Below, in pieces: positions 3,656 through 42,510 of a stretch of 64,000 bases of DNA. The stretch is from Bryobacterales bacterium (GTDB lineage Bacteria; Acidobacteriota; Terriglobia; Bryobacterales; UBA6623). Each line of letters opens with the position of its first letter. Positions within the stretch are counted from its first letter, which is position 1. The stretch lies in the NCBI GenBank assembly GCA_965204095.1, contig OZ241991.1, forward strand, positions 806,105 through 870,104. The letters are read 5' to 3'. The position numbers and the translations under genes are program-made. The notes beneath the pieces are model-generated. The model was not told the origin of the DNA and ran no database searches. It was given only the letters and a program-made list of their open reading frames with translations.

Positions 3656-5262
3656 ACACGCTCCGAATGGCGCTTCTTTCGGTGCTCGGCGCATCGCTTC
3701 TTGCCGCTCAGGTGAGCTACGAACGCATTCTCGACGCCGACAAGGAGCCTGGCAACTGGCTGACCTATTCGCGCACCTACGACAGTCAACACTACAGCCC
3801 GCTCGATCAGATCGACAAGAGCAATGTCAACGACCTGGAGTTGAAATGGGTGTTCCAGGCAGACGAAACGACGAAGTTCCAATCGACCCCGTTGGTCGTC
3901 GACGGCATTCTCTACCTCACCCACTCGCCCAACGACATCGCCGCCATTGACGCTGTTACCGGCCGTGTGTTCTGGCGATATCGCCACACGATCCCCGAAG
4001 GCATCAGTGTTTGCTGCGGGCTGGTCAACCGCGGGCTCGCCATTCTGGGAGATAGCCTTTTCATGGCGACTATCGACGGGCGCTTGATGTCTTTCGACGC
4101 CAAGACCGGCTCGATTCGCTGGGATGTGAAGGTCGTCGACAACAAGGACGGCTACGCACTCACGGTTTCGCCGTTGGTCGTCAAGGACAAGGTGGTCATC
4201 GGCACCGCCGGGGGCGAATACGGCATTCGTGGCTTCGTTGACGCCTACGACGCGAAGACGGGCAAGCATGCCTGGCGCTTCTGGACGATCCCCGGGCCGG
4301 GAGAGCCCTATCACGAGACATGGGAAGGCGATTCCTGGAAACGCGGCGGGGGGTCCGTATGGGTCACCGGCTCCTATGACCCCGAACTCGATCTGATGTA
4401 TTGGGGCACCGGCAATCCCGCCCCCGATTGGAATGCCGACGTCCGGCCCGGCGACAACCTCTACACGGACTCCGTCATTGCTCTCGACCCCGATACCGGC
4501 AAACTCGAATGGCACTTCCAGTTCACGCCGCACGACTGGTGGGACTGGGATTCGGTGCAAATTCCCGTGCTCGTCGACATGGAGTTCGAGGGCAGACAGC
4601 GCAAGGTCATCCTATGGGGCAATCGCAACGCCTTCTTCTACGTGCTCGATCGAGCAACGGGTGAATTCCTTCTCGGCAAGCCCTTCGCCTATCAGACCTG
4701 GGCGGTCGGTCTGGACGAATCCGGACGGCCGATCGTTCGCGACGGCATGCAACCCACCCCCGAAGGCACGAAAGTCTACCCCAGCGTTCAGGGCGCGACG
4801 AACTGGTACGCTCCCACCTGGCACCCGCGGACGAAACTGTTCTACTTGTCTGTCTGGGACCGCTATCCCAGCATCTACCACAAAGGAGATGCCACCTATG
4901 TTCGCGGGACGCGTTATCCGGGCAGTTTCCCCGAGGGGATCTATCCCGATATCGTCAAGGACGAGGAGATCGGCTTCGGCGCCATCCGCGCCATCGAACC
5001 CGCCACGGGCGAGCGCAAATGGGAGTTCAGGCTGACCGGCGTTTCCGAAAGCGGCTTGCTCTCGACCGCCGGTGACTTGATCTTCTCCGGCAGCAAGGAA
5101 GGTCACTTCCTGGCCGTGGATGTGGACGAAGGCAAGTTACAGTGGCGCATCAGCCTGGGCAGCCGCATGGCCAACTCGCCGATCACCTACCTGGCCGGCG
5201 GCAAGCAATTGATCTCCGTCGCTTCGGGCTTCGGCCTCTTCACGTTCGGACTCCGCGAGTAG
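3652..5262 (+). CDS. PQQ-dependent alcohol (methanol/ethanol family) dehydrogenase, no fused cytochrome domain
   Basis: NWLTYSRTYDSQHYSPL, STPLVVDGILY, vicinal-cysteine motif SVCCGLVNRG, GGSVWVTGSYDPELDLMYWGTGNPAPDWN. Signal peptide present. Confidence 0.9.
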   Translation: MNTLRMALLSVLGASLLAAQVSYERILDADKEPGNWLTYSRTYDSQHYSPLDQIDKSNVNDLELKWVFQADETTKFQSTPLVVDGILYLTHSPNDIAAIDAVTGRVFWRYRHTIPEGISVCCGLVNRGLAILGDSLFMATIDGRLMSFDAKTGSIRWDVKVVDNKDGYALTVSPLVVKDKVVIGTAGGEYGIRGFVDAYDAKTGKHAWRFWTIPGPGEPYHETWEGDSWKRGGGSVWVTGSYDPELDLMYWGTGNPAPDWNADVRPGDNLYTDSVIALDPDTGKLEWHFQFTPHDWWDWDSVQIPVLVDMEFEGRQRKVILWGNRNAFFYVLDRATGEFLLGKPFAYQTWAVGLDESGRPIVRDGMQPTPEGTKVYPSVQGATNWYAPTWHPRTKLFYLSVWDRYPSIYHKGDATYVRGTRYPGSFPEGIYPDIVKDEEIGFGAIRAIEPATGERKWEFRLTGVSESGLLSTAGDLIFSGSKEGHFLAVDVDEGKLQWRISLGSRMANSPITYLAGGKQLISVASGFGLFTFGLRE

Positions 5263-35184: not shown

Positions 35185-37095
35185 ATGATCGACACGCTTC
35201 GAGCAATCGCCTGTCTGTTGCTCGCCTGTGGAATGACGAGCGGGCAGCAGTTGTCTCCCCAGGCACGCGAGCGCATGGAGCGTGCGCACCAGATTCCTCA
35301 GAGAGCGCCGGCTTCGGAAGTTGCCCAGGAACTGACCCAGCAGGCAGCGGAGGTGCGACCGGGCGGCGCGGCAGTGAAGACGCCGGTCGAACGGCGGAAC
35401 TTCATCGACGAGCATATCTTCGGCCGGATCGAGCGCGACGGCATCCCTCACGCCGGGCCGGCGTCGGATCGTGAGTTTGCGCGGCGTGCCTATCTGGATG
35501 CGACGGGCCGCATCCCGCCGGTCGATGAGTTGCTGGCCTTCCTCGAGGATACCGACCCCGAGAAGCGTGACAAGCTGGTGGATCGGCTGGTCGATAGCGA
35601 AGAGTTCATCGAACGCTGGTCCTACTACTTCGAGGACCTCTTCCGGGCGGGCAACCGCATGGGGTTCGGCAAGAATCTCTTTCACTATTGGATCGTGGAA
35701 TGGCTGCTTCTCGACCGCTCGTACGCCGATGTGGCGACGGACCTGTTGACCCAGGGTGGGAAGAGCAGCCATTCGTCGCCGGGCGCGCTGTATTTCGCGC
35801 GCGATTTCGTCAAGGCCAAAGACGATCCGGAAGAGCCGGACGCGCTCGATCTGGTGAACCGCGCCGACGCGATCGACGAATTCACGATCACTTACAGCAA
35901 GGTGCTGCTCGGCATGAATCCGGGTTGCATCTCCTGCCACGATGGAGCGGGGCATCTCGAGAAAGTGAATGTGTTCTTCTCACGCAAAACGCGCGAGGAG
36001 TTCTTTCAGCAGGCGTCTTTCTTCGGCAGGACGCGGATGGTGATGAACTGGGAGAACGGCTTCCAGGCAAATACCGAATACACGGTAGATGATGTCGAGC
36101 CCGGGTATCCGACCAGCGGCGAGAGTATCGTTCGCGTCCCGCGGACGGGCGGGTCGAACGAGCCGCGATTCATCCTGACGGGTGAGGCGGCGCGGCCCGA
36201 AGCCATGCCCCGGGACGAGTTGGCTCGGCTGCTGACGGGGCATATCCAGTTTTCACGAGCCATCACGAATCGCATCTGGGCGGAGTTGATGGGGTTCGGC
36301 ATTGTCGAGCCGCTGGACGACTTCGACCTGGCGCGGTACTACCCGGACCAGGAGCTGCCCGAAGGCTGGTCGATGCAGCCCTCGAACCCGCAATTGCTGG
36401 ATGCGATGGCGCGAGATTTTCAGGCGCACGATTACAGCTTCAAGCACCTGGTGCGGACGATTATGAAGTCCAATGCCTACCGGCTCTCTTCGAAGTTCGA
36501 CGGTGAATGGAAACCCGGATATGCGAACTACTATCCGCGGAAGTTCGTGCGCATGTTGAGCGCGGCGGAACTGCACGACTCGATTGTCACGGCGACGGCG
36601 CGGCCAGGGTCCTATAAGAGCGGAGTGGATGATGTCGCCACGGCGATGGCGTTGCTGGACCCGGCGCACGTGAATCGCGAGGTGAAGGAGTTTCTGCGCG
36701 CTTTCGGACAGCAGAGCCGCGACTCACTGCCGGCGAAGACCGCGAGGTCGTCGCTGCAGGCGATGCTGATGATGAATTCGCAGGTTGTGCTCGATCGCGT
36801 GAAGGCGGAAGGCAACAGCCGGGTCGATCAACTGCTCGGACGCCTCGAAGATGACCGTATCGTGATCGAGCAGAGTTTCCGCACGGCGGCTGGACGCGAA
36901 CCCAGCACGGAGGAACGGGAGCGGGTTCTCGACCGCGGCCTGGTGGAGAAGATCTACCTGGCGACGCTGTCGCGGCGCCCGTTGCCGGCGGAGATGGATA
37001 TCGCCCTGAGCGCTTTGCACGAGGACCGCAAGCAGGGGATGGAGAACTTGCAGTGGGCGCTGCTGAACAAACCTGAATTCCTGTTCAACTATTAG
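35185..37095 (+). CDS. DUF1549/DUF1553-type protein (PSD1-like)
   Basis: NFIDEHIFGRIERDGIPHAGPASDREFARRAYLDATGRIPP, DKLVDRLVDSEEFIERWSYYFEDLFR. C-terminus LQWALLNKPEFLFNY. Confidence 0.8.
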   Translation: MIDTLRAIACLLLACGMTSGQQLSPQARERMERAHQIPQRAPASEVAQELTQQAAEVRPGGAAVKTPVERRNFIDEHIFGRIERDGIPHAGPASDREFARRAYLDATGRIPPVDELLAFLEDTDPEKRDKLVDRLVDSEEFIERWSYYFEDLFRAGNRMGFGKNLFHYWIVEWLLLDRSYADVATDLLTQGGKSSHSSPGALYFARDFVKAKDDPEEPDALDLVNRADAIDEFTITYSKVLLGMNPGCISCHDGAGHLEKVNVFFSRKTREEFFQQASFFGRTRMVMNWENGFQANTEYTVDDVEPGYPTSGESIVRVPRTGGSNEPRFILTGEAARPEAMPRDELARLLTGHIQFSRAITNRIWAELMGFGIVEPLDDFDLARYYPDQELPEGWSMQPSNPQLLDAMARDFQAHDYSFKHLVRTIMKSNAYRLSSKFDGEWKPGYANYYPRKFVRMLSAAELHDSIVTATARPGSYKSGVDDVATAMALLDPAHVNREVKEFLRAFGQQSRDSLPAKTARSSLQAMLMMNSQVVLDRVKAEGNSRVDQLLGRLEDDRIVIEQSFRTAAGREPSTEERERVLDRGLVEKIYLATLSRRPLPAEMDIALSALHEDRKQGMENLQWALLNKPEFLFNY

Positions 37096-37111
37096 CCCCA
37101 GTGAGGATCAC

Positions 37112-38500
37112 ATGATCAAGACCGTTCGGGATACTCTCCCTTTCCGCCGGGACGTGCTGAAGTTGGGAACGCTGAGCTTGCTGAGCGGCTTCGTGGAGCA
37201 GGGCTTGTGGCCCCCGCGCGTGCGCGCGGCGGGCAAGTCGAATCCCCGAGGGACAGCGCGAAACTGCATCGTGGTCGAGGCGGCGGGAGCGATCAGCCAC
37301 ACTGACACCTTCGACTTCAAGGAGAATGCCGGAACTCAATCCGATTTCGACGTGCGGCAGATCCGGAACGACCTCTATCTCTCGAACCGCTTGTTCCCCG
37401 AGCTGTCGTCGGAAATGGACAAGGTGGCGGTCGTGCGCTCGTTTTGGAGCCACGAGGTGGTTCACTTCCGCGGCGAGTACTACACACGGGCCGGACGTCC
37501 TTTGAACCCGGCGCAGGTTTCCGAGATTCCGCCAGTGGGTTCCGTAGTGTCTTACGAGTTCGAACCGCAACGGCGTGAGACGGATACGTTCCCGACGTTC
37601 GTGACTTGCAACCTCGGTTCGGCGGCGCTGCCGAGCGGGTTCCTGCACCCGCGCTTTTCCGGACTGGATATCAATGCCCAGGCCGGTGTCGGAAGCGTGT
37701 CGGCTCAGGGCGAAGCACTCGATCTTCTGCAGGAACGATTTCGATTGCTCAGCGAATTGGAGAAGGTCGTCGCCAAAGACTACCAAAGCCGCGGGCGCGA
37801 TCTCACGGGCTTCAGCACATTCCAGCAGGATGCCTACCGGATCCTGGGAGATGGTCGTTGGCCGAGGGCGCTTGAACTCGAGGATGAAGATCGCAGGCGC
37901 TATGGAGCGAATGCGGTCGGGCTCGGTTGTCTGCTGGCGCGGAATCTGATCCGGGCGGACGCGGGCACGCGGTACGTTCACGTGAAGCATCCGGGCTGGG
38001 ACCATCACAAGAACATCTTCGACCACTCGAAGAAGAGCAATCACTACAATCACTGCACGTCTCTCGACAGAGCACTGGCGAACCTGCTTCGCGATCTCGG
38101 GAAAACTCCTTCTCCGCATGATCCCGAGAAAACGCTGCTCGATGACACGATCGTCGCCGTACCGACCGAGTTCGGGCGCGTGCCAGGGCCGCTCAACGGC
38201 GTTGCCGGGCGGCATCACTACAACAGGTGCTACATCGGTCTGTTTGCAGGCGGTGGCGTAATAGGCGGACGGATCATCGGGCGCACCGACGCCGCGGGCG
38301 AAAACGCCGTCGAGACCGGTTGGAAATACGGCATGCAACCGAAGACGGAAAACATCTACGCCTCCGTGTACTCTGCCCTCGGAATCGACTGGAGAAAAGA
38401 GATCACCAACACGCCTTCCAAACGCGTCTACCGTTACGTGGATCCTCTCGGCGCGACAGAGCCTTGTATCGACGACGAGATCGCAGAACTCTTCGTCTAG
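37112..38500 (+). CDS. DUF1501-type (sulfatase/alkaline-phosphatase-fold) protein with Tat signal
   Basis: FRRDVLKLGTLSLL; VVEAAGAISHTDTFDFK; HVKHPGWDHH. Confidence 0.8.
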   Translation: MIKTVRDTLPFRRDVLKLGTLSLLSGFVEQGLWPPRVRAAGKSNPRGTARNCIVVEAAGAISHTDTFDFKENAGTQSDFDVRQIRNDLYLSNRLFPELSSEMDKVAVVRSFWSHEVVHFRGEYYTRAGRPLNPAQVSEIPPVGSVVSYEFEPQRRETDTFPTFVTCNLGSAALPSGFLHPRFSGLDINAQAGVGSVSAQGEALDLLQERFRLLSELEKVVAKDYQSRGRDLTGFSTFQQDAYRILGDGRWPRALELEDEDRRRYGANAVGLGCLLARNLIRADAGTRYVHVKHPGWDHHKNIFDHSKKSNHYNHCTSLDRALANLLRDLGKTPSPHDPEKTLLDDTIVAVPTEFGRVPGPLNGVAGRHHYNRCYIGLFAGGGVIGGRIIGRTDAAGENAVETGWKYGMQPKTENIYASVYSALGIDWRKEITNTPSKRVYRYVDPLGATEPCIDDEIAELFV

Positions 38501-38514
38501 GACCGAACGATCTG

Positions 38515-39318
38515 ATGTTGCCGTGTAGGGTCCTGCTGTTGTCTGTGATTGCATCGGTCGCTTTCGCAGACGAGGCGGGATCGCAGGACGCTCCTGCGGG
38601 CATGGTTCTGATACCGGCGGGAGAGTTCACGATGGGCCGGACGTTCGAGACCACTGATGACAAGCGGGGGATGCGACCCCTCGTGCTACGCGATGATCGT
38701 CCGGCGCACGTGGTCCGATTGGGTGCGTATTTCATGGACGCGCATGAGGTGACACAGGCTGAGTATGCGGAGTTCGTGCAAGCGACAGGTTACCGGACGC
38801 CCTATCACTGGGTGAATGGGGTGACGCCGGAAGGCAAGCAAGACCATCCTGTTCACAATGTCGATTGGCAAGACGCCGATACCTACTGCGCCTGGCGGGG
38901 CAAGCGGCTTCCGACAGAAGCAGAGTGGGAGCGTGCGGCGCGCGGCGGCGAAGAAGGCAAGCGCTACCCATGGGGTGACGACAAGCCGGATCGCCAACGG
39001 GCGCTTTTCAATACACCTTTGGGTCCTGGACCGGTCGGTTCTTACCCCTCCAATCCATTCGGTCTGTATGACATGGCGGGGAGTGTTTCCGAGTGGTGTT
39101 CGGACTGGTTCGTGAGGACGTATTACGAGCGGAGCCCGAAGGACAATCCCCATGGCCCTCCAGAAGGGATGTACAAGATCATTCGGGGCGGCTCCTGGGC
39201 GGATGGGCCTCAGCGGATAAGTGTTTTCTTTCGGAACTGGGTGCGGAAAAATCAACGGACGCCGAACTTGGGGTTCCGGTGCGTACAGGATGCGCCGGAG
39301 ACGAGCGCGGCGCAGTGA
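38515..39318 (+). CDS. FGE/SUMF1-family (formylglycine-generating-enzyme-like) protein
   Basis: ATG 38515 gives a signal peptide MLPCRVLLLSVIASVAFA. MVLIPAGEFTMG, HEVTQAEYAEFV, RLPTEAEWERAARGG, IIRGGSWAD, LGFRCV. Confidence 0.85.
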   Translation: MLPCRVLLLSVIASVAFADEAGSQDAPAGMVLIPAGEFTMGRTFETTDDKRGMRPLVLRDDRPAHVVRLGAYFMDAHEVTQAEYAEFVQATGYRTPYHWVNGVTPEGKQDHPVHNVDWQDADTYCAWRGKRLPTEAEWERAARGGEEGKRYPWGDDKPDRQRALFNTPLGPGPVGSYPSNPFGLYDMAGSVSEWCSDWFVRTYYERSPKDNPHGPPEGMYKIIRGGSWADGPQRISVFFRNWVRKNQRTPNLGFRCVQDAPETSAAQ

Positions 39319-39347
39319 GGAAGATGAAACGGCGGCGGTTCCTCGGC

Positions 39348-39674
39348 CTACAAACTCTTCTCCAGTGCCTGCATGATCCAACGGTTCAGGCTCAGGCCGC
39401 TCTGTGCGGCCGAGCGCGCAACGCGTTGATGCAAGTCCGGCCCTAGCCGAACGTTAAGCTTCCCCGAAAAAGGTTTCCGGGGCTCGATGCCATCTTCCTT
39501 GCAGGACTCGAGATACTCGTCGATGGACCTCTGGAACTCGCGCCGAATCCCCTCGACGTCAGTTGCTTCAAAGGTGGCGATTGGATAGGAGCCGCTATTG
39601 ACGACTCGTCCGTGAAGACGGTCCACGGACTCGTCGAACTCGACTGCAGCGATGTACCCTTTGTACTCCATCAT
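39348..39674 (-). CDS. hicB: HicB-family antitoxin (N-terminal HicB fold + C-terminal RHH)
   Basis: MMEYKGYIAAVEFDESVDRLHGRVVN..., KPFSGKLNVRLGPDLHQRVARSAAQSGLSLNRWI. Confidence 0.85.
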   Translation of the reverse strand: MMEYKGYIAAVEFDESVDRLHGRVVNSGSYPIATFEATDVEGIRREFQRSIDEYLESCKEDGIEPRKPFSGKLNVRLGPDLHQRVARSAAQSGLSLNRWIMQALEKSL

Positions 39675-39925
39675 GGCTTCACTCCCACGGCTTCGAGAAA
39701 TACGGCAATGTCGCGGACCGTCGCTCTACCGGTCTCCGGTCCTGGGTGAGACCGGTGAACCACCATCCGTTCCGTTCCCTTCTTCAGCAGCACCCGCGAT
39801 CCCGAACGCTGTGAGACCTCCACGTCTGCCGCCTTCAACAAGGCGGCGATGTCCACCCACCGGATGCCAGTCGGCGTCGGCCTCTTGAACATGCTTTCCA
39901 AGGTACGCCGATGCTTCGTACGCAC
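39671..39925 (-). CDS. hicA: HicA-family toxin (mRNA interferase)
   Basis: MRTKHRRTLESMFKRPTPTGIRWVDIAALL...GSRVLL...VHRSHPGPETGRATVRDIAVFLEAVGV. ATGA overlap with hicB. Confidence 0.8.
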   Translation of the reverse strand: MRTKHRRTLESMFKRPTPTGIRWVDIAALLKAADVEVSQRSGSRVLLKKGTERMVVHRSHPGPETGRATVRDIAVFLEAVGVKP

Positions 39926-39937
39926 GACACCCCATAC

Positions 39938-39956
39938 AGTACCAAATCAAGTACCA
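39938..39956. promoter_or_regulatory. direct repeat AGTACCA-N5-AGTACCA just upstream of hicA (candidate operator)
   Basis: Copies at 39938-39944 and 39950-39956, 12 bp centre to centre, 13 nt from the hicA start. Confidence 0.25.
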
Positions 39957-40032
39957 TTCTACAGCCGGCCTTTCCTGGCTCCCGTTTCCCGTTTCATGAA
40001 ATCGAGATAAGCTGTGTCTTTAAGAACCCGCG

Positions 40033-40188
40033 GAAGGGATGAACAAGATCATCCGGGGCGGCTCCTGGGCGGATGGGCCACAACGGATTACCGTTTTCTT
40101 TCGAAACTGGGTACGAACCAATCAACGGACACCGAACTTGGGTTTCCGGTGTGTGCAGGATGCGCCGGAGTCGAGCGCGGCGCAATGA
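40033..40188 (+). pseudogene. orphan 3'-terminal 52-codon fragment of an FGE-family gene (second copy of 39163..39318)
   Basis: Translates EGMNKIIRGGSWADGPQRITVFFRNWVRTNQRTPNLGFRCVQDAPESSAAQ-stop. 138/156 nt identical to the end of the intact gene. No upstream coding continuation. Confidence 0.85.
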
Positions 40189-40276
40189 AGTGAACGGCTG
40201 AACGCGGGCCGGTGGACTGCCTATCAGGAGGGCGCATGAGGTGCGGCGGGGCATTGAACCGCGATAATGACCAGGC

Positions 40277-42415
40277 ATGACGAAAACCGCGAGGTTGGCG
40301 CTCATCTTGATGGTTTGGTCCCCACCGCTCTGCGCCGAAGACCTCACTGTCCTGACAACCGACAGCAAGGGTCTCAAGCCGGGCCAACAGCTCGAAGAGC
40401 ATCTCAAACAGCAGTTCTACCGGCGGATCGAGGATCGCCACGCAGCCTTCGAGCAGATCAAGAGCCAAGCGGCCGCCCATGTCTGGCAGCACGAACGGCG
40501 CGAGTTCATGGTCCGCCAATTAGGGGGCTTCCCGAAGCGCACGCCGCTCAACCCGAAGACCCTTGGACATCTTGGCGGTGAAGGCTTTCGTGTCGAAAAG
40601 GTGATGTTCGAAAGCCGCCCTGGACACCACGTCACCGCTCTGCTCTACCTGCCGGACAGCACCGTGGAGAGAGTCCCCGGCGTGCTCATCCCGTGCGGCC
40701 ACAGCCACAACGGCAAGGCTTCCGGATGGTATCAGCGTGCCGGAATCCTCATGGCTCGCAACGGCATGGCGGCGCTTTGCTATGACCCGATCGGTCAAGG
40801 GGAGCGCTACCAATCGCTGGCGGCAAAAGACCATACCCATTTTCCAAGTGCTCCTCGATACCCCGTGCCGCATCCGAAGGTTCGATTCCTGCCGACGGTC
40901 GAGCACACCATGATGGGAATCGGCGGCATTCTGGTCGGTTCGAACGTTGCGCAGTACCGCATCTGGGATGGCATGCGGGCGATCGATTACCTGCAAAGCC
41001 GCGATGAAATCGATGCAACCCGCATCGGCTGTACCGGAAACTCCGGGGGCGGAACTCTGACTGCGTACCTGATGGCCCTCGACGATCGGATTGGCGCGGC
41101 GGCTCCCGGCTGTTTCTTGACGACGTTCCGCCGGCTCATCGACACACGGGGAGCGCAAGACGGCGAGCAGAACATCTTCGGCCAGATCGCTTTCGGTCTG
41201 GACGAGCCTGACTACGTCATGATGCGCGCCCCGGTGCCGACGTTGATTCTCGCCGCGACGAGGGACGTGACCTTCGACATCGCTGGAACTTGGGATCTTT
41301 TTCGCCAGGCAAAGCGCTTCTACACGCGTCTCGACTACCCCGAGCGGGTCGATCTGGTCGAGGCGGACGCTCCCCACGGATACTACATTCAGCACCGCAC
41401 GGCCGCCGCACGCTGGATGCGCCGCTGGCTTCTTGGCGAGGACGATGTCATCCCCGAGGTGGACCGCCTTCCCGACCCGCTCACGGATCAGGTACTGCGG
41501 GATCGGTTTCGAGAGGGAATGTGGCCCGACGACAAGCTGCTGGTTTCCCCACAGGGTCAGGTGATGCTCATGCAGGGGGAGAAGTCGGTGTTCGACCTGA
41601 ACGCCGACACCGCTTCGCGGCTTGCCACGGAAAGACAGCGGCGCTGGAGCAGGGCATCTGCCGATGAATGGAGCGAAGCGGTGAGAAGCGTTATTGGAAC
41701 CCGCAAGTCGTCGGAACTCCCTGCCCCGCAAGTCGAGAGTCGAGGAGCCGTCCAGCGCGACGGTTACCGGATCGAGAAACTCGTTCTGCTCGGCTCCGAT
41801 GGGGCGATCTCCTTGCCGGGTCTGCTGTTTGTTCCGGAACGCCGCGGTGCGGAACCGGTTCTCTACCTGCACGGGGAGAGCATGAAAACCGACGCCGCAG
41901 CGAAGGGGCCGATCGAACGGCTTGTCCGGGAGGGACACGTCGTCTTGGCAGCCGAGCTGAGCGGGATCGGAGAAACAGAAACCGGTCATCAGAAGCGCGA
42001 TTATGGCCGGGGCCGCTTCGGACCGGATTCGCAGGAGATCTATCTCGCCTACCTGCTCGGCAAATCGTTCGTCGCAATGCGCACGGAGGACGTGCTTCGC
42101 TGGTCGAGTTATCTTGCCGGCCAGGTAACGGAGGACGAGGGCAGCATTCAACTTTTGGGGATTGGCGAGGCCGCCATTCCCGCTCTGCACGCAGCGGCTC
42201 TGGAACCGGCCCGGTTCAAATCGGTATCACTGCGAGGAATGATCCGCTCCTGGACGGAGTTGGTTGGCGCTCGGGAAAACCGGAACCAGCTTGTCAACGT
42301 TGTCCACGGTGCGTTGAAAACCTACGATCTGCCCGACCTGATCCGGCTTGCCGGGACCGGAAAGGTCGAAGTCGCCCGATCGGTCGACCCCTTGGGACAG
42401 CCGCTGGCTCGCTGA
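40277..42415 (+). CDS. secreted alpha/beta-hydrolase (acetyl-xylan-esterase-like)
   Basis: Signal peptide, then VLIPCGHSHNGK and nucleophile elbow GCTGNSGGG. The C-terminal half is a second, degenerate hydrolase-like region. Confidence 0.75.
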   Translation: MTKTARLALILMVWSPPLCAEDLTVLTTDSKGLKPGQQLEEHLKQQFYRRIEDRHAAFEQIKSQAAAHVWQHERREFMVRQLGGFPKRTPLNPKTLGHLGGEGFRVEKVMFESRPGHHVTALLYLPDSTVERVPGVLIPCGHSHNGKASGWYQRAGILMARNGMAALCYDPIGQGERYQSLAAKDHTHFPSAPRYPVPHPKVRFLPTVEHTMMGIGGILVGSNVAQYRIWDGMRAIDYLQSRDEIDATRIGCTGNSGGGTLTAYLMALDDRIGAAAPGCFLTTFRRLIDTRGAQDGEQNIFGQIAFGLDEPDYVMMRAPVPTLILAATRDVTFDIAGTWDLFRQAKRFYTRLDYPERVDLVEADAPHGYYIQHRTAAARWMRRWLLGEDDVIPEVDRLPDPLTDQVLRDRFREGMWPDDKLLVSPQGQVMLMQGEKSVFDLNADTASRLATERQRRWSRASADEWSEAVRSVIGTRKSSELPAPQVESRGAVQRDGYRIEKLVLLGSDGAISLPGLLFVPERRGAEPVLYLHGESMKTDAAAKGPIERLVREGHVVLAAELSGIGETETGHQKRDYGRGRFGPDSQEIYLAYLLGKSFVAMRTEDVLRWSSYLAGQVTEDEGSIQLLGIGEAAIPALHAAALEPARFKSVSLRGMIRSWTELVGARENRNQLVNVVHGALKTYDLPDLIRLAGTGKVEVARSVDPLGQPLAR

Positions 42416-42510
42416 CCGGCATCCAGCGCCGTTGTACGGCGATGTCGTTGTCAAGTACCGGATGTTTCCAACGAAAATCGGAAACGAAGCTTCCGCGTCA
42501 TTGCAAAGAT

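What the first reader, a model, noticed from the sequence alone, without database searches (positions are those of the whole stretch)
39163..40188. hicAB cassette bracketed by two diverged copies of the last 52 codons of the FGE-like gene
The final 156 nt of the FGE-like gene (39163-39318) recur at 40033-40188. The 714 bp between them carry hicB, hicA and their promoter region. By my count the copies differ at 18 of 156 positions. Of 16 altered codons, 12 are synonymous and 4 are conservative replacements (Y/N, S/T, K/T, T/S), and both copies keep the stop codon. That pattern means both copies evolved under protein-level selection before being juxtaposed. The second copy therefore comes from a different functional allele or ortholog, not from a local duplication followed by decay. 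A plausible model is homologous-recombination-mediated acquisition of a foreign segment (FGE 3' end + hicAB) that left the resident 3' end stranded, or the converse. This would be a rare case of a TA cassette arrival whose junctions can be read from the sequence.
Basis: seen in the sequence. Interest (0 to 1): 0.6.

Follow-up and report, generated by a model that had tools for sequence, protein, structure and literature searches.

The report
hicAB cassette flanked by duplicated gene end
A small toxin-antitoxin gene pair was inserted behind a sulfatase-maturation-type gene in a group of Bryobacterales bacteria, leaving a dead spare copy of that gene's last ~170 bases which still swaps sequence with the live copy; it is a clear but ordinary case of gene-cassette acquisition.

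Summary
Window 39163-39318 and 40033-40188 differ at 18 of 156 positions, 14 of them third codon positions (dN/dS 0.08). HicB and HicA lie between the copies. Relatives add four points.

1. Two sister lineages (L002, L178/179) have an empty site: one FGE 3' end, no hicAB, same esterase downstream.
2. Every strain of the ~95%-identity clade with sequence across the site (about 10 assemblies, some long-read) carries hicAB plus both copies, so this was one old acquisition and not an artefact.
3. The downstream copy is the stranded remnant. It joins the native intergenic DNA and decays independently in each lineage (indels, lost stops, substitutions spread over codon positions).
4. The copies exchange sequence. 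Several strains have homogenised copies. The tract in the window's dead copy is part of the live gene in L164-166 and L003.

So the synonymous-biased differences reflect two old functional haplotypes (dS 0.36-0.52, about species-level). Ongoing exchange means the window alone cannot show that they predate the juxtaposition, or which one is foreign.

Best model: one-sided homologous plus illegitimate recombination, or a Campbell-type insertion-duplication.

Novelty: new member of a known kind. Interest is modest.

The parts
38515..39318 (+). FGE-sulfatase-family gene (267 aa). It is the last gene of a PSCyt2/PSD1 - DUF1501 - FGE triad that is conserved across Bryobacterales.
   Evidence: Pfam PF03781 1e-65. 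Triad synteny in L001-L021 and L081-L087.
39152..39329 (+). Copy 1 of the duplicated unit. It covers the live 3' end of the FGE gene (last ~55 codons) plus 11 nt past the stop. It carries haplotype A in this window.
   Evidence: Alignments. In L181 the post-stop flank reads TGAGGCCGATG, like copy 2 and the native flank. Variants private to copy 1 fall mostly at third codon positions (3/1/7).
39330..40021 (-). Inserted DNA (692 nt), absent from the empty-site lineages L002 and L178/179. Only the core 39355-39963 is shared (80-86% nt) with hicAB cassettes in unrelated contexts.
   Evidence: empty sites; cassette core. No terminal inverted repeats. No integrase or transposase ORF.
39348..39674 (-). 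hicB antitoxin (108 aa, DNA-binding C-terminus). It is intact in all strains.
   Evidence: PF05534 1.9e-22. Intact ORFs. 80-98% aa homologues across phyla.
39671..39925 (-). hicA toxin (84 aa from GTG 39925, or 73 aa from ATG 39892). Its stop overlaps the hicB start.
   Evidence: PF07927 8.9e-9. Intact in all strains. Gene callers give 84, 73 or 56 aa in relatives.
39938..39956 (-). Direct repeat TGGTACT-N5-TGGTACT just upstream of hicA. It is a candidate HicB operator or promoter element.
   Evidence: The repeat is exact in the strains of this locus and in L172. In L171 and L173 each differing copy is one base off (L171 CGGTACT/TGGTACT; L173 TAGTACT/TAGTACC). The spacer varies and the sequence upstream of the repeat is unrelated. 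No sigma-70 consensus promoter was found.
40022..40188 (+). Copy 2, the stranded and decaying remnant of the FGE 3' end. It carries haplotype B in this window, a Y-to-N change, and a 34-nt deletion at its 3' edge. The 49-aa ORF at 40039-40188 is fortuitous.
   Evidence: It is contiguous with the native intergenic DNA also found in the empty-site L002. Relatives carry 11-12-nt, 2-nt and 1-nt indels and lost stops. Pairwise identity is 80-87% against 95-96% for neighbouring genes. The codon-position spectrum of private variants is flat.
40277..42415 (+). Native downstream gene (AXE1/S9-type esterase, 712 aa). It directly follows the FGE gene in the empty-site genomes.
   Evidence: Pfam. L002, L178 and L179 have FGE, a 122-nt gap, then the esterase.

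Best explanation
SHOWN. A hicA-hicB type II toxin-antitoxin cassette (~690 nt) was acquired once, in the ancestor of a ~95%-identity clade of Bryobacterales. It sits between the FGE-family gene and the downstream esterase. The event left two direct copies of a ~178-nt unit (the last ~55 codons of the gene plus 11 nt). The upstream copy completes the live gene. The downstream copy is a stranded remnant that is decaying.

INFERRED origin. A fragment from a related lineage, carrying a complete FGE 3' end followed by hicAB, recombined with homology on the FGE side only. Its other end joined illegitimately inside the resident gene, ~166 nt before the stop (homology-facilitated illegitimate recombination). 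This replaced the resident stretch and stranded the resident tail. The topologically equivalent alternative is a Campbell-type single crossover of a circle.

SHOWN, later history. The two repeats act as recombination partners. Tracts have been copied from the live to the dead copy and from the dead to the live copy, and they are reciprocally placed in one strain pair. Two old functional haplotypes (A, B) therefore circulate between the two positions. The window holds A in the gene and B in the remnant.

INFERRED. The cassette encodes an mRNA-cleaving toxin and an autorepressing antitoxin that binds the TGGTACT repeats. Loss of the cassette by repeat-repeat deletion may be counter-selected by the toxin.
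For: - Empty sites: L002 and L178/179. Outgroups L081 and L180 lack hicAB.
- Occupied sites in W, L001, L003, L161-170 and L181.
- hicAB divergence tracks or is lower than that of flanking genes, so there was a single acquisition.
- Copy 2 is contiguous with the native flank and decays by independent indels and stop loss. Copy-2-private variants fall 8/17/12 over codon positions, against 3/1/7 for copy 1.
- Exchange between copies: strain-specific variants are shared by both copies in L001, L003, L161-163 and L181. Eight sites at 39210-39273 are reciprocally placed in W versus L164-166, flanked by position-specific sites. The longest identical run between copies is 26 nt, so k>=31 assemblers cannot collapse them, and three independent assemblies agree.
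- Haplotype depth: A versus B dS is 0.36-0.52, against a within-clade window median of 0.12 (maximum 0.44, n=387) and a W-L002 median of 0.32.
- Cassettes related at 80-86% nt sit in unrelated contexts without flanking repeats, so the repeats come from this insertion event and not from the cassette.
- There are no TIRs, integrase or transposase.
- HFIR is a documented route for foreign DNA with one-sided homology (PMC6382021).
Against: - No donor arrangement (complete FGE, 11 nt, then hicAB in another lineage) was found, so the recombination route is inferred from topology only.
- The direction (which haplotype was resident) is unresolved. dS to L002 favours B as resident, but not significantly.
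- Outgroup proteins share B's amino-acid states. That fits B being ancestral, but it equally fits a local duplication in which copy 1 later changed.
- The exchange history is a mosaic. The W/L164 'swap' tracts themselves differ at 3-4 of ~64 sites, so more than one event or inter-strain import may be involved.
- Competence for transformation in these bacteria is unknown.
- Toxin activity, operator binding and counter-selection of deletion are untested.
Confidence: 0.6

Rival explanations
1. Campbell-type insertion-duplication. A non-replicating circle carrying ~178 nt of an FGE 3' end plus hicAB integrated by one homologous crossover inside the resident gene tail, which automatically creates the two flanking copies. 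Such circles could come from repeat-repeat excision in another strain that already carries the structure.
For: The topology is exactly that of insertion-duplication: a direct repeat of the targeting fragment flanks the insert with an 870-nt period. The reciprocal placement of haplotypes in W versus L164-166 is what excision followed by re-integration at a different crossover point would give. hicAB is nearly identical (0-1 differences per 150 nt) among strains whose flanks differ by 3-5%.
Against: It needs a pre-existing circle containing a gene fragment, so it does not explain the first origin. No circular junction or free element was seen. The cassette has no nucleotide match in the plasmid or phage collections. 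Mosaic recombination is also seen elsewhere in the locus, so the hicAB homogeneity is not specific.
Confidence: 0.2
2. Local duplication at insertion. The cassette was captured during break repair or a replication template switch that re-copied ~178 nt of the target, so the copies began identical. Today's synonymous-biased differences arose later, through allelic replacement of the live copy from diverged strains and exchange between the copies.
For: Inter-strain mosaic recombination is frequent at this locus. Exchange between copies is demonstrated. The duplicated unit includes 11 non-coding nt past the stop, so it is not defined by the coding sequence. Outgroups share the amino-acid states of the remnant haplotype, so the live copy carries the derived S and K.
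Against: The A/B split (dS up to 0.52) is at or beyond the extreme of within-clade diversity (0 of 387 windows >=0.48; 1.5% >=0.38), so an allele from outside the sampled clade is still required. 7 of the 8 haplotype-defining sites at 39210-39273 are third positions, which would be unlikely (my binomial estimate, about 0.003, at an expected 1/3 per site; not run as a tool call) if they had arisen neutrally in the remnant.
Confidence: 0.15
3. Remnant of a larger integrative island that targeted the FGE 3' end by site-specific recombination and carried a surrogate gene end. Only its hicAB stabilisation module survives between attL and attR.
For: Islands that insert into gene 3' ends carry replacement ends and often carry TA modules (general knowledge). 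A tRNA-Pro and variable IS insertions lie 2.3 kb downstream in relatives.
Against: No integrase or any other island gene lies between or next to the repeats in any of ~10 strains. The repeats have no identical core longer than 26 nt. Homology runs ~166 nt upstream of the stop, which a site-specific surrogate end does not need.
Confidence: 0.03
4. Two tandem FGE paralogues once existed, and hicAB replaced most of the second, leaving its tail.
For: Both haplotypes look protein-constrained. Tandem FGE genes occur in some Nitrospiraceae loci (L023).
Against: No Bryobacterales relative, empty-site or outgroup, has a second FGE gene at this place. It would require a precise loss of the whole paralogue in two sister lineages.
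Confidence: 0.02

Closest known systems
Type II toxin-antitoxin system hicAB (HicA mRNA interferase, HicB antitoxin/repressor)
   Same: Both Pfam domains are present. The gene order is toxin first, with an overlapping stop and start. The genes are small and a conserved direct repeat lies upstream. Homologues are spread across phyla at 80-92% aa, as expected for a horizontally mobile cassette.
   Different: Nothing unusual in the genes themselves. Only the insertion scar is special.
Homology-facilitated illegitimate recombination (de Vries & Wackernagel 2002; Prudhomme et al. 2002; described in PMC6382021)
   Same: Foreign DNA is fixed next to a homologous anchor. One junction is homologous and the other is abrupt, with at most a few bases of possible microhomology (AGG/A at 40022). 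No mobile-element machinery is involved.
   Different: Known from laboratory transformation of competent species. Here it is inferred from a natural scar. The donor is unknown, competence is unknown, and the outcome leaves a duplicated gene tail rather than a simple insertion-deletion.
Campbell-type insertion-duplication (as in insertion-duplication mutagenesis with non-replicating plasmids; my own knowledge)
   Same: A direct duplication of the targeting fragment flanks the insert. The repeats later recombine (conversion, excision).
   Different: There is no vector backbone and no evidence for a circle. The repeats were, or became, 12% diverged.
Integrative islands and phages that insert into gene or tRNA 3' ends and supply a surrogate end
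   Same: The live gene is completed by the copy adjacent to the insert, a displaced tail remains on the other side, and a TA module lies inside.
   Different: There is no integrase and no identical att core. The insert is only 0.7 kb, and homology extends far upstream of any plausible crossover site.
Gene conversion between a gene and a nearby pseudogene fragment
   Same: Strain-specific variants are shared by both copies. The dead copy has donated a tract to the live gene in L003 and L164-166.
   Different: There is no sign that the exchange is programmed or selected (unlike antigenic-variation cassettes). It is one donor of 178 nt.

Membership tests
hicAB type II toxin-antitoxin | HicA toxin domain (PF07927) | tested here: met
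   E=8.9e-9, 35.8 bits against a cut-off of 27. The ORF is intact in all strains.
hicAB type II toxin-antitoxin | HicB antitoxin with a DNA-binding C-terminal domain (PF05534) | tested here: met
   E=1.9e-22, residues 54-104.
hicAB type II toxin-antitoxin | Bicistronic operon with the toxin upstream and overlapping genes | tested here: met
   hicA 39925-39671 and hicB 39674-39348 overlap by 4 nt on the minus strand.
hicAB type II toxin-antitoxin | Autoregulation through an operator in the promoter | tested here: inconclusive
   TGGTACT-N5-TGGTACT or a copy one base off is present in all sampled cassettes, exact only in this locus's strains and L172. Binding was not tested, and no sigma-70 consensus promoter was found.
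hicAB type II toxin-antitoxin | RNase toxicity neutralised by the antitoxin | not testable with these tools
   Needs expression assays.
Site-specific integrative element at a gene 3' end | Integrase/recombinase gene within or beside the element | tested here: not met
   Only hicA and hicB lie between the repeats. The neighbours are FGE and the esterase in all strains.
Site-specific integrative element at a gene 3' end | Identical att core in both repeats | tested here: not met
   The longest identical run between the copies is 26 nt in W and 23 nt in L164, at different places.
Transposon / IS / MITE | Terminal inverted repeats, a short target-site duplication, and a transposase | tested here: not met
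   No inverted repeats at the insert ends. The duplication is ~178 nt. There is no transposase ORF.
Integron gene cassette | attC recombination site at the cassette end; integron integrase nearby | tested here: inconclusive
   No imperfect palindrome at either insert end and no integrase in the neighbourhood. No dedicated attC model was run.
HFIR product | One homologous junction plus one illegitimate junction at 3-10 bp of microhomology | tested here: inconclusive
   The right junction is abrupt at 40021/40022, with at most A/AGG shared with the gene. The donor sequence is unknown, so microhomology cannot be scored.
Campbell-type insertion-duplication | Direct duplication of the homologous fragment flanking the insert | tested here: met
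   ~178-nt unit at 39152-39329 and 40022 onward, period 870.
Campbell-type insertion-duplication | Circular donor molecule | not testable with these tools
   Needs reads or PCR for a circle junction.

The most novel reading that the evidence does not exclude
The repeat-flanked hicAB acts as a recombinase-free mobile module. Host homologous recombination between the two FGE tails excises an 870-bp circle. That circle can re-enter any FGE allele in the population by a single crossover. Cells that merely delete it are punished by the stable HicA toxin. If so, the toxin-antitoxin pair maintains and spreads its own insertion scar. This would account for the near-identical hicAB in strains with 3-5% diverged flanks and for the reciprocally exchanged haplotypes.
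Probability: 0.08. Interest if true: 0.6.

Novelty: new member of a known kind. Interest (0 to 1): 0.33.

Why it matters
Chromosomal toxin-antitoxin cassettes are known to move horizontally, but the insertion step is rarely visible. This locus preserves several things together: an empty site in sister species, both junctions, a dated pseudogene tail, and a population series. The series shows conversion in both directions between a live gene and its stranded fragment. That makes it a useful worked example, and a caution. Synonymous-only differences between a gene and a nearby fragment do not prove that the fragment was foreign at the time of insertion, because exchange with the live copy can renew that pattern. 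It does not reveal a new kind of element or mechanism.

Tried and rejected
- Assembly artefact: rejected. The structure recurs in ~10 assemblies, some chromosome-level, and the copies share no 31-mer.
- Native versus foreign copy by synonymous distance to the empty-site species: inconclusive. Haplotype A is closer to L002 (dS 0.11-0.19) than B (0.30-0.50), but 17% of 141-nt windows at this locus are as low as A, and B is not an outlier.
- Polarising sites with L081, L178 and L180: mixed, with both haplotypes carrying derived states.
- Donor search: the FGE scan of metagenomes gave only one moderately close locus, without hicAB. The nearest hicAB cassettes (L171-L173) sit beside unrelated genes and have no flanking repeats. 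There are no plasmid or phage nucleotide matches.
- Transposon or integron features: none found.
- Sigma-70 promoter scan upstream of hicA: nothing.
- Literature searches for a described hicAB or TA insertion with duplicated target gene ends found no direct precedent. PMC122324 is not held.
- An exact look-up of the window's FGE protein found no record, so the source genome was not identified.
Full report
**Observation.** I re-read 37800-41200 and listed the ORFs. 39163-39318 and 40033-40188 align without gaps and have 18/156 mismatches. Sixteen codons are altered, 12 synonymously and 4 by replacement (Y/N, S/T, K/T, T/S). The mismatches fall 2/2/14 over codon positions. Nei-Gojobori gives dS 0.52, dN 0.039 and dN/dS 0.076, and the position bias has p=3e-4. 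The pair is unique in the window (blastn E=2.6e-53; the repeat finder). Pfam confirms each gene:
- FGE-sulfatase at 38515-39318
- HicB at 39348-39674, minus strand
- HicA at 39671-39925, minus strand
- an FGE C-terminal hit for the 49-aa fragment
- a DUF1549/1553 - DUF1501 pair upstream
- an AXE1/S9-type esterase downstream

**Relatives.** A scan of species-representative genomes with the FGE protein shows that the organism is a Bryobacterales (Acidobacteriota) bacterium. L001 and L003 (~94% nt) carry the same hicAB and both copies. L002 (~90% nt) aligns through the FGE gene and continues directly into the esterase, with a single gene tail and no hicAB, so it is an empty site. Exact-protein look-ups added L161-L170 and L181, which are all occupied. 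They also added a second empty-site lineage, L178/179. More distant loci (L081, L180) lack both hicAB and the esterase. One gain on the stem of the ~95% clade is therefore the most parsimonious history. hicAB divergence among strains equals or is lower than that of the flanking genes, as expected for a single acquisition. Several assemblies are chromosome-scale. The two copies never share more than 26 identical bases, so the duplication is not an assembly artefact.

**Anatomy refined.** Alignment of all copies places the 5' edge of the duplicated unit at 39152/40022. In L181 copy 1 is followed by TGAGGCCGATG, exactly like copy 2 and the native flank, which places the 3' edge 11 nt past the stop. 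The unit is therefore ~178 nt and is not limited to coding sequence. The inserted DNA is 39330-40021. Only 39355-39963 of it is shared, at 80-86% nt, with hicAB cassettes found beside unrelated genes: a ParA-type context, and a CBASS island in a Truepera MAG. Those cassettes have no flanking repeats. No terminal inverted repeats, integrase or transposase are present. The cassette has no nucleotide match in the plasmid or phage collections.

**Which copy is the remnant.** The downstream flank of copy 2 is the native FGE-esterase intergenic DNA seen in L002, whereas the downstream flank of copy 1 belongs to the insert. Copy 2 decays independently in each lineage:
- a 12-nt deletion in L001
- 11-nt and 1-nt deletions and a CGA in place of the stop in L003
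- 2-nt and 1-nt deletions and AGA in place of the stop in L161-163
- single-base insertions in L169
- a Y-to-N change and a 34-nt deletion at the 3' edge in the window and L164-166

That last deletion makes the window's 'retained stop codon' uninformative. Copy-2 pairwise identity is 80-87%, against 95-96% for neighbouring genes. Variants private to copy 2 are spread 8/17/12 over codon positions. Those private to copy 1 fall 3/1/7.

**Exchange between the copies.** Strain-specific variants occur in both copies of the same genome: L001 at 39219 C, L003 at 39216 T, the identical centres of L161-163, and almost the whole unit in L181. This is gene conversion from the live to the dead copy. In L003, and more clearly in L164-166, the live gene carries the tract that sits in the window's dead copy (CCACAACGGATTACC...CGAACC...GGT). 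Copy 2 of L164-166 carries the window's live tract, including the otherwise unique ATA-AGT. Eight sites at 39210-39273 are reciprocally placed, and they are bracketed by sites that stay with their position. Three assemblies from two pipelines agree on this. The swapped tracts still differ at 3-4 sites between the strains, and some copy-2-specific variants are shared across strains. The history is therefore a mosaic of several events rather than one clean swap. Fourteen of the 18 copy-2 states in the window are found in live FGE genes elsewhere.

**Depth of the two haplotypes.** A versus B gives dS 0.36-0.52 over 47 codons. Within-clade 141-nt windows across four genes have a median of 0.12 and a maximum of 0.44; none of 387 reaches 0.48 and 1.5% reach 0.38. 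Window-versus-L002 windows have a median of 0.32. The split is therefore about as old as the split from the sister species, and it is protein-constrained. Direction stays open. A is closer to L002 than B (0.11-0.19 against 0.30-0.50), but both values lie inside the window distribution. Outgroup nucleotides side with each haplotype at different sites. At protein level the outgroups share B's T...T states, so A's S and K are derived.

**Mechanism.**
- Shown: a single acquisition, a stranded tail, decay of that tail, and exchange between the copies.
- Inferred origin: the simplest single-event origin is recombination of a fragment carrying a complete FGE tail followed by hicAB. Homology on the gene side gave one junction. 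An illegitimate join ~166 nt before the resident stop gave the other. This is homology-facilitated illegitimate recombination, described for transformable bacteria (PMC6382021).
- Alternatives not excluded: a Campbell-type single crossover of a circle gives the same topology. A local duplication during capture, followed by allelic import, is also possible because inter-strain mosaicism is strong here. For example, hicAB shows 0-1 differences per 150 nt among W, L161/163 and L164, while the flanks show 5-10.
- Disfavoured: a remnant integrase island and a lost tandem paralogue (no supporting gene in any strain).

**Function of the cassette.** HicA and HicB are intact everywhere. The TGGTACT-N5-TGGTACT repeat 13-31 nt upstream of the GTG start is exact in L172. 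In L171 and L173 each differing copy is one base off, and the sequence upstream of the repeat is unrelated in all three. This fits an operator or promoter element. No sigma-70 consensus promoter was found. Toxicity, binding and any addiction effect against repeat-mediated deletion are inferences from what is known of the family.

**Verdict.** However, 'diverged before juxtaposition, hence foreign' is not demonstrable from the window, because the copies keep exchanging sequence. This is a well-preserved example of a known kind of event, and the interest is modest.

Noticed in passing
window 35185-39318; L004-L021, L081-L087: The gene triad PSCyt2/PSD1 (DUF1549/1553) - DUF1501 - FGE-sulfatase is conserved in order across distant Bryobacterales loci. 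This suggests that the FGE-type enzyme works on the DUF1501 protein or its partner, rather than on a classical sulfatase.
   Followed up: partly
window 39330-39925 versus L161, L163, L164: hicAB shows 0-1 differences per 150 nt among four strain lineages whose flanking genes differ by 3-5%. This points to recent inter-strain homogenisation of the cassette. Similar low-divergence patches occur in the esterase (41350-41650, W versus L163), so the population is generally mosaic.
   Followed up: partly
L001 10000-11463; L002 9964-10914; window 42430-42510: Relatives carry different insertion sequences between the esterase and tRNA-Pro: a 487-aa DDE-type transposase in L001 and a 316-aa integrase-core-type ORF in L002. 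The window has none there.
   Followed up: partly
L173 (JAPOQY010000076.1, Truepera MAG) 3783-4333: A hicAB with 89% HicB identity (80% nt) lies beside a CBASS-like island in a Truepera MAG. Its accession series resembles that of L003. This suggests recent cross-phylum transfer within one community.
   Followed up: no
window 39981-39994: A tandem 7-mer, CCCGTTT x2, lies in the non-cassette part of the insert. L164-166 have lost one unit.
   Followed up: no
window 39892-39925: The HicA start is ambiguous, either GTG 39925 (84 aa) or ATG 39892 (73 aa). The related cassette in L173 lacks the upstream start, and gene callers disagree among strains.
   Followed up: partly
window 40039-40188: The remnant forms an intact 49-aa ORF in this window, and it was called as a gene in one public assembly (L166). 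It is disrupted in most other strains, so it is fortuitous.
   Followed up: yes
window 40082-40103: A terminator-like hairpin (AACGG-ATTA-CCGTT followed by a T-rich run) exists only in haplotype B of the repeat. Its frequency is at chance level for the region (1 found, 1.0 expected).
   Followed up: no
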